A stretch of DNA of 64,000 bases from Escherichia coli O157:H7. Lineage in GTDB: Bacteria > Pseudomonadota > Gammaproteobacteria > Enterobacterales > Enterobacteriaceae. Positions 39,201 through 42,200 of the stretch are shown here, one piece after another (position 1 is the first letter of the stretch; each line of letters begins with the position of its first letter). The DNA is taken from assembly GCF_013167455.1 (NCBI RefSeq), contig NZ_CP038328.1. One strand, 5' to 3'. A program made the position numbers.

Positions 39201-42200
39201 TTCTACGCCGACAGGCCAGGTGTTAGAGGTGTAGCTAAAACAGGCGACGCCAACGCCGCGGCGTAAATTGCCTTGCTGGTTCTGGCACTCTGCACGGCGT
39301 TTTTCCCATTCAAAGATTTTCCGGCCTTTTTCAAGACACTCCGGCAACCCTGCGCTGTAAATACGTTTGCCCGTGAGCGGATTAGCATCTCCTTCGCGTG
39401 AGGCGTTGCGTAAACGAATTTCAACAGGATCAATACCTAACGCTGTCGCGGCGTCATCAAGCATAGACTCAACGGCAAATACGACTTGTGGCGCGCCATA
39501 ACCACGCATCGCACCAGCCGAGGGGAGGTTGGTATAGCAGGTCTTTGAACTGTAAGCGTAGGCACAACGAGGATAAAGGTAAGCGACTTTATTTCCCCCT
39601 GCAGAAGCGATGGAGTGCCCGTGAGATACATAAGCGCCGGTGTTAGACAGAACATCCAGACTATAACCTTTCAATGTTCCGTCGCGGTTCACGCCCATTT
39701 GCCCGTCAATAGTAAAAGCGTGGCGGGTACGGGTTGCGAGGAAACACTCTTCACGGCTAAGGGAAACTTTCACCGGAATGCCGCCAAGCTTGCTGGTCAG
39801 GAATGCCGCCATTGGCTCTTCCAGTACATCCTGTTTATTACCAAAACCGCCACCGACAAATGTTTTGATGACTCGTACGCATGACCAGGGAATATCCAGC
39901 GCCTGACCAACCACGCGGCGAACAATGTGCGGGATCTGGGTGCTGGAAACGATGGTAATTCGCGAGTCATCCTCCATCCACGCCAGCGATGTTACGCTTT
40001 CCATGTGACAATGTTGAATAACGGGGGTCTGATAGTGCCCCTGTACCTGGTAGTCGGCGGCATCGATTGTTTGTTGGACATTGCCCGTCGACATCGTGCT
40101 TTGTTTCAGTAAATTGCCGCCGTTATGGATTGGTGCAGCGTCCTCTGCCAGCGCCGCTTCTGGCGTGGTGATAACGGGTAATTCTTCCCACTCAATGCTG
40201 ACCAATTGCGCCGCTTTTTCTGCCGTGAGTTCATCGCGGGCCACGACGATGGCAACGGCGTCACCATGATGACGAACATGGCGAGTTAGCAGTGCGCGAT
40301 CGGCGGTATCGCGCTTGTTTTCGTCAAGTGTCCATGCATGCCCAGCTGTAGCGAATGGGATATCAGGCACATCTTCCCAGGTAAAAATCGCCAGTACGCC
40401 TGGTAAACTTCTGGCTTGTTCATCATTAATACTTACGGCATAACCATGTGCGATAGGGCTACGTACATATTTCGCATAACACATGCCCGCCATAACATAA
40501 TCGTCAGTATATCGTGCCCGCCCGGTGACCTTAGCAATGGCATCAACGCGCATGCATGATTCACCCGTAGCGGTTGCTTCCCGCGCTTCCATAGAAATCC
40601 CCTCGATTTGAACATTTGGTTCTTATGGCAAAGATTTAGTCTAAGCAGGCAAGATTTACGCCAGAAACGGCGATAAGCGTTAAGGGAGGAAGGAAGTGTG
40701 ATGATGTTAAAAAAACACAGATATGATACGAAACAGGACCCTGAATAGGGGTAGTGATACGTATCAATATGAGTGGCGATAAAATCAATGTGATAAATTA
40801 GGATTATTACGCATCAGGATGGGAAATAGGGTAAAAAAGTCAGGAACTTCGATACCTCTACAGTGAATATTTTGCTGATGATACTTCCCTTTGCCAAATG
40901 AAATTAACCTCTTTCTCTATTACATCGTTTTTCCAGAAGCAAGAGATTGGGTATCAAGAGGCTGGCTGCTATGATATGGCGTCTTGTTTTTTAAGCGAGG
41001 AAAGATTTTGAGTGCGGGACGCCTGAATAAAAAATCTCTGGGTATCGTGATGTTGTTATCGGTTGGACTGCTTTTGGCGGGCTGTTCGGGTAGCAAATCA
41101 TCCGATACAGGAACGTATTCCGGCTCCGTTTACACCGTGAAACGGGGGGATACGCTATATCGTATTTCGCGCACCACGGGAACCAGCGTAAAAGAGCTGG
41201 CGCGACTGAACGGCATTTCCCCCCCTTACACCATTGAAGTTGGTCAGAAACTAAAACTGGGTGGGGCGAAAAGTAGCAGTAGTACACGTAAATCAACCGC
41301 CAAATCAACGACCAAAACCGCATCGGTTACACCGTCATCAGCGGTACCGAAATCTTCCTGGCCGCCAGTAGGGCAACGTTGTTGGTTATGGCCAACGACA
41401 GGGAAAGTTATCATGCCGTATTCGACAGCAGATGGCGGCAATAAAGGGATTGATATCTCAGCTCCACGGGGTACACCTATTTACGCCGCGGGTGCAGGAA
41501 AGGTGGTGTATGTGGGCAACCAGCTGCGTGGCTACGGTAATCTCATCATGATTAAACACAGTGAAGATTACATTACGGCTTACGCCCATAATGACACGAT
41601 GCTGGTAAATAATGGGCAAAGCGTGAAGGCTGGGCAAAAAATCGCCACCATGGGGAGCACGGATGCGGCATCTGTTCGCCTGCATTTCCAGATTCGTTAC
41701 CGTGCAACGGCAATTGATCCGCTACGTTACTTGCCGCCTCAGGGCAGCAAGCCAAAATGCTGATGGCGAATTAATCAGCAGTCAGCAGCGCGGCACTTGC
41801 TAAGAAGAGCGTAAGGTTTATAATGCCTTACGCATCTCGAAGCGGGCGTAGTTCAATGGTAGAACGAGAGCTTCCCAAGCTCTATACGAGGGTTCGATTC
41901 CCTTCGCCCGCTCCAATTTATCTTCACCTCATCAATCTGCCATTTTTGCTGTATCTGATTTTCTATATTATCTTAATTCAATCGCTTCAGACTTTTCGCA
42001 ATCTCTGTAACACTCCCCCATTTTTTTGTAAATAAAAAGCGTTTACGCAATGCAATCCTTTTGTAACAACCCAGGTAAAATACCTTATTTTCAAGTTGTT
42101 AAATAAGTGGTTATCTACGCTTTTAACAAACGATTGATGGAATATTTTATGAAAGGGAAATCTGCATTAACTCTTCTGCTCGCTGGTATATTTTCGTGCG

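What the first reader, a model, noticed from the sequence alone, without database searches (positions are those of the whole stretch)
40647..40663. Candidate sigma54 promoter upstream of xdhABC
On the gene strand the sequence reads TGGCGT-AAATC-TTGCC, with the invariant GG and GC at the canonical spacing, about 95 nt upstream of xdhA. The cluster encodes the sigma54 enhancer-binding protein YgeV, so sigma54 control of xdhABC is plausible.
Basis: partly seen in the sequence, partly recalled or inferred. Interest (0 to 1): 0.5.

Follow-up and report, generated by a model that had tools for sequence, protein, structure and literature searches.

The report
Known sigma-54 promoter of xdhABC
The motif is real and is the already published sigma-54 promoter of the E. 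coli xanthine dehydrogenase operon, so the finding is correct but not new; what may be new is a shared upstream sequence that looks like the binding site of its activator, YgeV.

Summary
The window is E. coli O157:H7. On the minus strand, 40664..40648 reads CTGGCGTAAATCTTGCC, with GG and GC at the canonical -24/-12 spacing, upstream of xdhABC.

The motif alone is weak evidence. The loose pattern is at chance level, and the PWM score of 12.3 bits is expected about 5.7 times per shuffled 64 kb. Conservation is the strong evidence: TGGCGT-N5-TTGC is invariant upstream of xdhA in 29 loci from 11 genera, while the spacer and flanks drift.

The site is already published:
- Zhao et al. 2010 list this exact sequence. 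xdhA rose 4.9-fold on sigma-54 overproduction and fell 2.1-fold in an rpoN deletion.
- Bonocora et al. 2015 list the same 17-mer as sigma-54 ChIP-seq site OS29, flagged as experimentally confirmed in EcoCyc.

Additions from this work:
- Two conserved dyads (TATCA-N3-TGA, about 21 bp apart) lie at about -152 and -131. The same dyad sits 200-235 bp upstream of the ygeW, ygfK and ygfT sigma-54 sites, making it a candidate YgeV operator. I found no paper describing it.
- A conserved TCACA box lies at about -67.
- xdhA most likely starts at ATG 40592, not at the K-12 annotated start. The predicted 5' UTR is then about 45 nt, and the motif ends 56 nt, not 95 nt, upstream of the start codon.

The parts
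40648..40664 (-). Sigma-54 (-24/-12) promoter element CTGGCGTAAATCTTGCC of xdhABC. GG is at 40662-40661 and GC at 40650-40649.
   Evidence: Sequence. PWM 12.3 bits, rank 3 in the window. TGGCGT and TTGC are invariant in 29 loci from 11 genera. The identical 17-mer is ChIP-seq site OS29 and the promoter in Zhao 2010 Table 2.
40637..40637 (-). Predicted transcription start (A), 12 nt downstream of the C of the GC. Not mapped experimentally as far as I could find.
   Evidence: Bonocora's rule places the start 19 bp downstream of the motif centre. The motif centre is 40656, giving 40637, which is 84 nt from the K-12 start (40553), exactly their listed distance. It is 45 nt from ATG 40592.
40782..40796 (.). 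Upstream dyad 1 (gene strand TTATCACATTGATTT; core TCA-N3-TGA), centred about -152. Candidate YgeV binding site.
   Evidence: Phylogenetic footprint, with TCA invariant in 18 species. UAS PWM score 14.0-14.3.
40761..40775 (.). Upstream dyad 2 (gene strand CACTCATATTGATAC), centred about -131, 21 bp from dyad 1. Candidate YgeV binding site.
   Evidence: TGA is invariant. PWM 15.3-15.7. Centre-to-centre spacing is 19-21 bp in the 16 species measured.
40697..40712 (-). Conserved box TTTTAACATCATCACA centred about -67.5. The TCACA half matches a CRP half-site and the left half is T-rich. Function unassigned: a CRP-like site, or an extra activator half-site (ATCACA).
   Evidence: TCAC is invariant in 18 species. 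It has 2 mismatches to TGTGA-N6-TCACA.
40599..40604 (-). Shine-Dalgarno GAGGGG, 6 nt before ATG 40592.
   Evidence: AGGGGA is conserved before the upstream ATG in the Escherichia to Pluralibacter loci.
38295..40592 (-). xdhA (765-aa form), first gene of the operon served by the promoter.
   Evidence: The N-terminal 13 residues are conserved, and the K-12 start Met is Leu or Lys in Trabulsiella, Buttiauxella, Hafnia and Enterobacillus.
36930..38284 (-). xdhB (37406-38284) and xdhC (36930-37409), the rest of the operon.
35112..36890 (+). [quoted passage not shown]
   Evidence: Pfam finds PAS, Sigma54_activat (2e-70), AAA_lid_14 and HTH_8. GAFTGA and Walker A are present. The HTH helix is invariant in 12 orthologues.
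34727..34743 (-). Sister sigma-54 promoter of ygeWXY (CTGGCACACTTATTGTT). Its dyad is at 34943-34957 (about -234) and a CRP-like box TGTGATCAACCCCACA sits at about -77.5.
   Evidence: It is OS30.
25091..25107 (-). Sister sigma-54 promoter of ygfK (GTGGTGCGATTGTTGCT). Its dyad TTATCATAATGATAA is at 25275-25289 (about -202) and a perfect CRP consensus TGTGAGTTCATTCACA sits at about -97.5.
   Evidence: It is OS31.
10085..10101 (+). Sister sigma-54 site of ygfT (TATGCCCGTTTATTGCA). Its dyad TTCTCATATTGATAT is at 9906-9920 (about -199).
   Evidence: It is OS32.

Best explanation
This is the sigma-54 (RpoN) promoter of the xdhABC operon, known as xdhAp.

Proposed mechanism:
1. RNA polymerase carrying sigma-54 binds the -24 GG and -12 GC of CTGGCGTAAATCTTGCC as a closed complex that cannot open on its own. 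Occupancy in vivo is shown by published ChIP.
2. Opening requires ATP hydrolysis by an enhancer-binding protein. The most likely one is YgeV, encoded next to xdhC on the opposite strand. I infer that it binds the two conserved TATCA-N3-TGA dyads about two helical turns apart, at about -152 and -131, and contacts the polymerase by DNA looping.
3. A conserved TCACA box at about -67 lies where a DNA-bending protein would sit. It could be CRP, as at the sister promoters, but this step is speculative.
4. Transcription should start near 40637 and give a leader of about 45 nt before the ATG at 40592.

The same dyad upstream of the ygeW, ygfK and ygfT sigma-54 sites suggests one YgeV regulon for anaerobic purine and uric-acid catabolism.
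For: - Motif: present with canonical spacing. PWM 12.3 bits, rank 3 in the window, with the ygeW and ygfK ChIP sites at ranks 1 and 4.
- Conservation: TGGCGT and TTGC are invariant in 29 loci from 11 genera at a conserved distance from the ATG, while the spacer varies.
- Published experiments on identical K-12 DNA: a sigma-54 ChIP-seq peak, OS29, FAT 11, EcoCyc 'confirmed'. xdhA rose 4.9-fold on sigma-54 induction and fell 2.1-fold in the rpoN deletion.
- Activator: YgeV has the Sigma54_activat, GAFTGA and HTH_8 features. ygeV lies next to xdhC in 21 of the related loci.
- Regulon: xdhABC is in the YgeV iModulon, and ygfT expression is reported to be lower in a ygeV mutant.
- Upstream sites: a PWM trained only on non-Escherichia xdhA dyads puts its top three window hits 199-234 bp upstream of the other three sigma-54 sites of the cluster. 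The two xdhA dyads rank 4th and 8th. The ygeW dyad ATATCAATATGAGAAT is nearly invariant in 12 species. The YgeV recognition helix is invariant.
- Alternatives: no competing sigma-70 promoter above chance and no Rfam element.
Against: - The motif alone is not statistically remarkable at window scale: 5.7 equal-or-better hits are expected per shuffled 64 kb. It deviates from consensus (GGCGT rather than GGCAC; TTGCC rather than TTGCA/T) and scores in the lower range of verified sites.
- The effect of the rpoN deletion was only 2.1-fold in the conditions used.
- In vitro genomic SELEX with sigma-54 holoenzyme listed the ygeV/ygeW spacer but not the actS/xdhA spacer.
- Bonocora et al. stress that binding does not prove productive transcription.
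- I found no mapped 5' end and no direct test of YgeV binding or of ygeV dependence of xdhA.
- In Kluyvera, Hafnia and Enterobacillus no ygeV lies within 6 kb of xdhA, although the promoter and dyads are present.
Confidence: 0.9

Rival explanations
1. The site binds sigma-54 holoenzyme but is a poised or very weak promoter. Most xdhABC transcription would come from another promoter, such as a sigma-70 promoter further upstream.
For: Bonocora et al. caution that many ChIP sites may never fire. The rpoN effect was modest at 2.1-fold. The spacer is absent from the sigma-54 gSELEX list. A weak sigma-70-like match lies at 40897-40869 on the gene strand.
Against: The sigma-70-like match is no better than chance (1 found, 1.4 expected) and lies in an unconserved part of the spacer. 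The -24/-12 element, two upstream dyads and a proximal box are the only invariant blocks across 18 species, which implies selection on a working enhancer-dependent promoter. xdhA rose 4.9-fold within minutes of sigma-54 induction.
Confidence: 0.07
2. It is a functional sigma-54 promoter, but its activator is not YgeV. It could be another enhancer-binding protein such as NtrC, and the conserved dyads would bind a different transcription factor.
For: No direct YgeV-DNA binding data were found. NtrC gSELEX gave a site between xdhB and xdhC. Some genera keep the promoter and dyads without a ygeV gene within 6 kb.
Against: The dyad occurs upstream of exactly the four sigma-54 sites of the cluster that make up the YgeV iModulon. 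ygeV is syntenic in most loci and its HTH is invariant, like the dyad. ygfT, which has an identical 15-mer dyad, is reported to depend on ygeV. The dyad TATCA-N3-TGATA does not resemble the NtrC site TGCACC-N5-GGTGCA, which I am citing from memory.
Confidence: 0.08
3. It is a chance match with no function.
For: The loose pattern is at chance frequency. Shuffled windows yield several hits with the same PWM score.
Against: The element is invariant in 29 loci across 11 genera at a fixed position. In vivo sigma-54 occupancy and sigma-54-dependent expression are published.
Confidence: 0.01

Closest known systems
xdhAp, the sigma-54 promoter of E. coli K-12 xdhABC (Zhao, Liu and Burgess 2010, NAR 38:1273, Table 2; Bonocora et al. 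2015, PLoS Genet 11:e1005552, site OS29; flagged as confirmed in EcoCyc)
   Same: It is the same element. The 17-mer and 26-mer are identical, the orientation and gene are the same, and K-12 and the O157 window are identical from 6 nt upstream of the 17-mer through the start codon, and in both upstream dyads.
   Different: Nothing differs in the promoter itself. The published distances (-110..-93, and 84 nt) are measured to the K-12 start codon, which comparative data suggest is 39 nt too far downstream.
Sister promoters of the same cluster: ygeWXY (OS30), ygfK (OS31) and ygfT (OS32)
   Same: All are sigma-54 ChIP-seq sites in the same purine and uric-acid catabolic cluster. Each has a TATCA-N3-TGAkA dyad 130-235 bp upstream and a CRP-like box between the dyad and the promoter.
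   Different: xdhA has two adjacent dyads closer to the promoter (-152 and -131), whereas the others have one strong dyad at about -200 to -234. Its proximal box has only one good CRP half-site.
glnAp2 with NtrC, the archetypal enhancer-dependent sigma-54 promoter (textbook knowledge, cited from memory)
   Same: It has a -24/-12 element and two dyad activator sites more than 100 bp upstream on the same helical face. Activation works by looping and ATP hydrolysis by a GAFTGA AAA+ protein.
   Different: The activator and signal differ: YgeV has an N-terminal PAS-containing sensor region and no receiver domain. The operator sequence is also different.
prpBCDE promoter with PrpR (sigma-54, a nearby activator gene and CRP dependence; cited from memory, Lee, Newman and Keasling 2005)
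   Same: It is a catabolic operon under a sigma-54 promoter, with a locally encoded PAS-type enhancer-binding protein and catabolite control through CRP.
   Different: CRP involvement at xdhA is only suggested by a conserved half-site. Glucose repression and a 'native Crp-binding site' are reported for the ygeV-ygeW spacer, not for xdhA.

Membership tests
Sigma-54 (RpoN) dependent -24/-12 promoter | GG and GC dinucleotides 12 nt apart, within TGGCAC-N5-TTGCW | tested here: met
   The element reads cTGGCGT-AAATC-TTGCc, with GG at 40662-40661 and GC at 40650-40649. There are two mismatches in the -24 block (GT for AC) and one after the GC.
Sigma-54 (RpoN) dependent -24/-12 promoter | A PWM score within the range of experimentally bound sites, and the best site in its intergenic region | tested here: met
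   It scores 12.3 bits; the training sites range from 8.2 to 20.7. It ranks 3 of 128,000 positions, and the next best hit in the 450 nt upstream scores 0.5 bits. It is not significant at window scale, but only 0.017 such hits are expected in the spacer.
Sigma-54 (RpoN) dependent -24/-12 promoter | Correct orientation and a short distance upstream of a gene | tested here: met
   It is on the gene strand, 56 nt before ATG 40592 or 95 nt before the K-12 start.
Sigma-54 (RpoN) dependent -24/-12 promoter | Evolutionary conservation of the -24 and -12 blocks beyond that of the flanks | tested here: met
   The blocks are 100% identical, against 74% for the spacer and 51% for the other columns, in 18 species. 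The element is present in all 29 loci.
Sigma-54 (RpoN) dependent -24/-12 promoter | Occupancy by sigma-54 holoenzyme in vivo | not testable with these tools
   Published: ChIP-seq peak OS29, FAT 11, on the identical K-12 sequence. It is not in the in vitro gSELEX list.
Sigma-54 (RpoN) dependent -24/-12 promoter | Expression depends on rpoN | not testable with these tools
   Published microarrays: 4.9-fold up on sigma-54 induction and 2.1-fold down in the rpoN deletion.
Sigma-54 (RpoN) dependent -24/-12 promoter | Transcription start about 12 nt downstream of the GC | not testable with these tools
   Predicted at 40637 (one search rule). I found no mapped 5' end in the papers searched.
Enhancer-dependent activation by a bacterial enhancer-binding protein (YgeV) | A cognate AAA+ activator with a GAFTGA loop and a DNA-binding HTH, encoded in the genome | tested here: met
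   YgeV has Sigma54_activat (2e-70), AAA_lid_14, HTH_8 and PAS domains. GESGTGKE and GAFTGA are present.
Enhancer-dependent activation by a bacterial enhancer-binding protein (YgeV) | Upstream activator sequences: dyad sites 80-250 bp upstream, conserved and shared by co-regulated promoters | tested here: met
   Two dyads at -152 and -131 are conserved in 16-18 species. The same motif gives the top window hits upstream of ygeW, ygfK and ygfT.
Enhancer-dependent activation by a bacterial enhancer-binding protein (YgeV) | Physical binding of YgeV to these sites, and ygeV-dependent transcription of xdhA | not testable with these tools
   The evidence is indirect only: iModulon membership and reported ygeV dependence of ygfT, plus the invariant HTH.
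CRP-modulated promoter | A TGTGA-N6-TCACA site | tested here: inconclusive
   At xdhA the box is TTTTA-ACATCA-TCACA (2 mismatches), with the right half invariant and the left half T-rich rather than GTGA. The sister promoters have 0 or 1 mismatch.

The most novel reading that the evidence does not exclude
The promoter itself is known. What appears undescribed, within the literature I could search, is its enhancer: a 13-15 bp dyad, TATCA-N3-TGA(T/G)A. Two copies lie at -152 and -131 of xdhA, and one strong copy lies 200-235 bp upstream of each of the ygeW, ygfK and ygfT sigma-54 sites. The dyad is conserved across Enterobacterales, as is the YgeV recognition helix. If it is the YgeV (IsrR) operator, working together with CRP-type boxes at -67 to -97, it defines the cis-regulatory code of the gut-relevant anaerobic purine and uric-acid degradation regulon. 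It would also allow the YgeV regulon, including any link to EHEC virulence genes, to be predicted from sequence.
Probability: 0.55. Interest if true: 0.4.

Novelty: already known. Interest (0 to 1): 0.12.

Why it matters
xdhABC and the neighbouring ygeW-ygfT genes carry out purine and uric-acid catabolism in gut Enterobacteria. Recent work links this pathway to host urate homeostasis, and those authors say its regulation is still poorly understood.

Confirming that the site is the published sigma-54 promoter adds nothing new in itself. It does show that the first-stage reader can recover a real regulatory element from raw sequence.

The practical gain is the candidate YgeV operator and the corrected xdhA start codon. 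Together they give precise targets for footprinting, reporter mutagenesis and regulon prediction. Those experiments would also bear on the reported role of YgeV (IsrR) in EHEC virulence regulation.

Tried and rejected
1. The loose pattern TGGC-N7-TTGC has no discriminating power on its own (3 matches, 3.45 expected).
2. The PWM score is not significant as a stand-alone statistic at window scale, so I relied on conservation and the literature instead.
3. Sigma-70 alternative: only one weak match, no more than chance.
4. An RNA element such as a riboswitch or sRNA in the actS-xdhA spacer: no Rfam match at E <= 1.
5. An IHF site in the conserved T-rich/TCACA block: by eye, no acceptable match to WATCAA-N4-TTR on either strand. 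I therefore did not call it IHF. This used the consensus from memory, and no PWM was run.
6. Papers I tried to read but that are not held: Reitzer and Schneider 2001, and Iwadate and Kato 2019 (cited only second-hand through).
7. Papers that mention xdhA with CRP or sigma-54 but turned out to be irrelevant: P. putida xdhA, a ytfK screen and a UPEC colony-growth study.
8. Searches for any description of a YgeV binding motif found none. The library lacks most subscription journals, so absence there is weak evidence.
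Full report
**What the window is.** The 701 bases around the finding are 100% identical to E. 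coli O157:H7 chromosomes and are present in 5,411 of 5,426 complete E. coli genomes. The genes, from ORFs and RefSeq annotation, are:
- actS (ygeR), 40984-41763, plus strand
- xdhA, 38295-40592, minus strand
- xdhB, 37406-38284, minus strand
- xdhC, 36930-37409, minus strand
- ygeV, 35112-36890, plus strand
- ygeW and the following genes, minus strand

**Checking the observation.** Read on the minus strand, 40664..40648 is CTGGCGTAAATCTTGCC. GG and GC are 12 nt apart, as in TGGCAC-N5-TTGC.

The '95 nt upstream of xdhA' is right only for the K-12 start codon (ATG at 40553; K-12 annotation). The PGAP start used for O157 (ATG 40592) is 56 nt from the 3' end of the motif.

**Is it more than chance?**
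- The loose pattern is uninformative: 3 matches against 3.45 expected.
- I built a 17-nt PWM from 38 intergenic sigma-54 ChIP-seq sites of Bonocora et al., leaving out the four sites of this gene cluster. The xdhA site scores 12.3 bits, rank 3 of 128,000 positions in the window. Ranks 1 and 4 are the ygeW and ygfK ChIP sites.
- Shuffled 64-kb sequences nevertheless give 5.7 hits of that strength on average. The score becomes meaningful only when restricted to the 391-nt spacer on the gene strand: 0.017 hits expected, and 115 of 20,000 shuffles of the spacer reach it.

**Conservation.** A scan of one genome per species with XdhA returned 32 loci. In every one of the 29 loci that include the xdhA 5' end, the best PWM hit in the 450 nt upstream is TGGCGT-N5-TTGC[C/T], 55-83 nt before the ATG. 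The next best hit is far weaker. These loci cover Escherichia, Citrobacter, Kluyvera, Atlantibacter, Buttiauxella, Hafnia, Enterobacillus, Yokenella, Klebsiella indica, Trabulsiella and Pluralibacter.

In an 18-species alignment, TGGCGT and TTGC are 100% identical. The 5-nt spacer is 74% identical and the remaining columns 51%. Only five invariant runs of 3 nt or more exist in the whole upstream region: TCA, TGA, TCAC, TGGCGT and TTGC.

**What the literature says.** The site is already published.
- Zhao, Liu and Burgess 2010 list tttcTGGCGTAAATCTTGCCTGctta at -110..-93 from the K-12 xdhA start. xdhA rose 4.9-fold five minutes after sigma-54 induction and fell 2.1-fold in an rpoN deletion.
- Bonocora et al. 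2015 report sigma-54 ChIP-seq site OS29 with motif CTGGCGTAAATCTTGCC, FAT 11 and a predicted start 84 nt from the K-12 xdhA start. It is flagged 'C', which their legend defines as experimentally confirmed in EcoCyc.
- Lamoureux et al. 2023 place xdhABC in a YgeV iModulon. They note the previously identified sigma-54 promoters upstream of xdhABC and ygeWXY, and cite reduced ygfT expression in a ygeV mutant.

K-12 MG1655 and the window are identical from 6 nt upstream of the 17-mer through the start codon, and in both upstream dyads, so these results transfer directly.

Two cautions apply. The sigma-54 gSELEX study lists the ygeV/ygeW spacer but not the actS/xdhA spacer. Bonocora et al. also stress that binding is not proof of productive transcription.

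**The activator.** YgeV has PAS, Sigma54_activat (E = 2e-70), AAA_lid_14 and HTH_8 domains, together with the Walker A motif GESGTGKE and the GAFTGA loop. It has no receiver domain. ygeV lies next to xdhC, on the opposite strand, in 21 of the related loci. In EHEC it has been renamed isrR and linked to indole signalling and LEE expression.

**How the promoter probably works.** Beyond the -24/-12 element, the footprint alignment shows two dyads: TTATCAcAATGA and cTCATatTGATA. Their cores are TCA-N3-TGA. In E. coli they are centred at about -152 and -131, and their spacing is 19-21 bp in 16 species. Hafnia has a third copy, with wider spacing between the aligned dyads.

A PWM trained only on the non-Escherichia xdhA dyads (consensus TTATCATTATGATAA) was scanned across the window:

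| Rank | Window position | Score (bits) | Location |
|---|---|---|---|
| 1 | 25275-25289 | 20.1 | about -202 from the ygfK sigma-54 site |
| 2 | 34943-34957 | 17.5 | about -234 from ygeW |
| 3 | 9906-9920 | 17.5 | about -199 from ygfT |
| 4 | 40761-40775 | 15.3 | xdhA dyad 2 |
| 8 | 40782-40796 | 14.0 | xdhA dyad 1 |

Taking 200-bp target zones upstream of three promoters in 64 kb, the chance that the top three independent hits all fall there is roughly (600/64000)^3, about 1e-6. This is my own estimate.

The ygeW dyad ATATCAATATGAGAAT is nearly invariant in 12 species. The YgeV HTH helix AADELGIGIATLYRKIKKY is invariant in 12 orthologues whose overall identity is 67-96%. I therefore infer that this dyad is the YgeV operator. 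Direct binding is untested.

**The proximal box.** Between the dyads and the promoter lies a conserved box, TTTTAACATCATCACA, centred at -67.5 with TCAC invariant. The sister promoters have better CRP-type sites at comparable positions, and both halves of the ygeW site are conserved:
- ygeW: TGTGATCAACCCCACA at -77.5
- ygfK: TGTGAGTTCATTCACA at -97.5

A 2025 paper reports glucose repression of the pathway and a native Crp site in the ygeV-ygeW spacer. For xdhA itself the assignment is uncertain, because the left half of the box is T-rich rather than GTGA. ATCACA could instead be an extra activator half-site.

**Other checks.** There is no sigma-70 promoter above chance and no Rfam element in the spacer.

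**Start codon.** The 13 residues upstream of the K-12 start, MEAREATATGESC, are conserved at the protein level and preceded by a conserved AGGGGA Shine-Dalgarno sequence. The K-12 initiator Met is Leu in Trabulsiella and Buttiauxella and Lys in Hafnia and Enterobacillus. The 765-aa form starting at 40592 is therefore the likely true product, and the predicted 5' UTR from 40637 is about 45 nt.

**Verdict.** Three things remain inferred: activation by YgeV, the exact transcription start, and the role of the proximal box. The candidate YgeV operator shared by the four sigma-54 promoters is the one result here that I could not find in the accessible literature. That library omits most subscription journals.

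Noticed in passing
window 40761-40796; 34943-34957; 25275-25289; 9906-9920: A dyad TATCA-N3-TGA(T/G)A lies 130-235 bp upstream of all four sigma-54 ChIP sites of the cluster (xdhA, ygeW, ygfK, ygfT). The ygeW and ygfT copies are the identical 15-mer. It is a candidate YgeV operator, and I found no description of it in the papers searched.
   Followed up: yes
window 40697-40712 (xdhA); about -77.5 of ygeW; about -97.5 of ygfK; about -68.5 of ygfT: CRP-like boxes sit between the dyads and each sigma-54 promoter, at positions differing by about 10-bp steps (-67.5, -68.5, -77.5, -97.5). The ygfK box is a perfect TGTGA-N6-TCACA.
   Followed up: partly
window 34834-34849 (-) and 9744-9759 (+): Two matches to the PurR operator consensus ACGCAAACGTTTTCGT, which I cited from memory, with 2 and 3 mismatches. 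One is in the ygeV-ygeW spacer, where AGCCAAACGTTTTCGT is conserved in 10 of 12 species. The other is in the uacT-ygfT spacer. The count alone is not significant: 17 of 100 shuffles give 2 or more matches.
   Followed up: partly
window 40553-40592: The K-12 annotation starts xdhA 39 nt downstream of the PGAP start. Comparative data favour the upstream ATG at 40592: a conserved N-terminal extension and Shine-Dalgarno sequence, and a K-12 Met that is not conserved.
   Followed up: yes
window 17832-17834 (minus strand, xdhD codon 644): xdhD carries TGG to TAG (W644*) relative to O157:H7 strain PV15-279. This is the only difference in 2,871 nt. The uric-acid reductase XdhD is therefore probably truncated in this strain, unless it is a sequencing error.
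   Followed up: partly
window 25091-25116 (minus strand): Two overlapping sigma-54-like registers lie upstream of ygfK: CTGGCAAGAGTGGTGCG (11.5 bits, the register printed by Zhao 2010) and GTGGTGCGATTGTTGCT (12.0 bits, the register of Bonocora 2015). They are 9 nt apart, and which one is used is unresolved.
   Followed up: no
window 40627-40658 (minus strand): A direct repeat, TAAATCTTGCC and TAAATCTTTGCC, overlaps the -12 region and the first 10 or so nucleotides of the predicted transcript. The second copy is conserved only within Escherichia, so it is probably fortuitous.
   Followed up: partly
window 21163-21179 (minus strand, inside ssnA): This is the second-best sigma-54 PWM hit in the window, CTGGCACGACTGGCGCA at 13.3 bits. 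It is intragenic and lacks the TTGC block. I did not check it against Bonocora's table of intragenic sites.
   Followed up: no
window 26021-26791: yqeC is intact in the window but interrupted by IS1203 in the reference O157 strain PV15-279. ygfS is annotated there as a pseudogene with an internal stop. The window therefore comes from a different O157 lineage or strain.
   Followed up: no
window about 44300-64000: Across actS, tRNA-Gly and three further genes from xdhA (glycoside hydrolase, GhoT/OrtT toxin, an HTH protein) lie type III secretion genes (sctC, gatekeeper, EscV/SctV family, sctN). This is the ETT2-type island as annotated in the matching O157 record.
   Followed up: no
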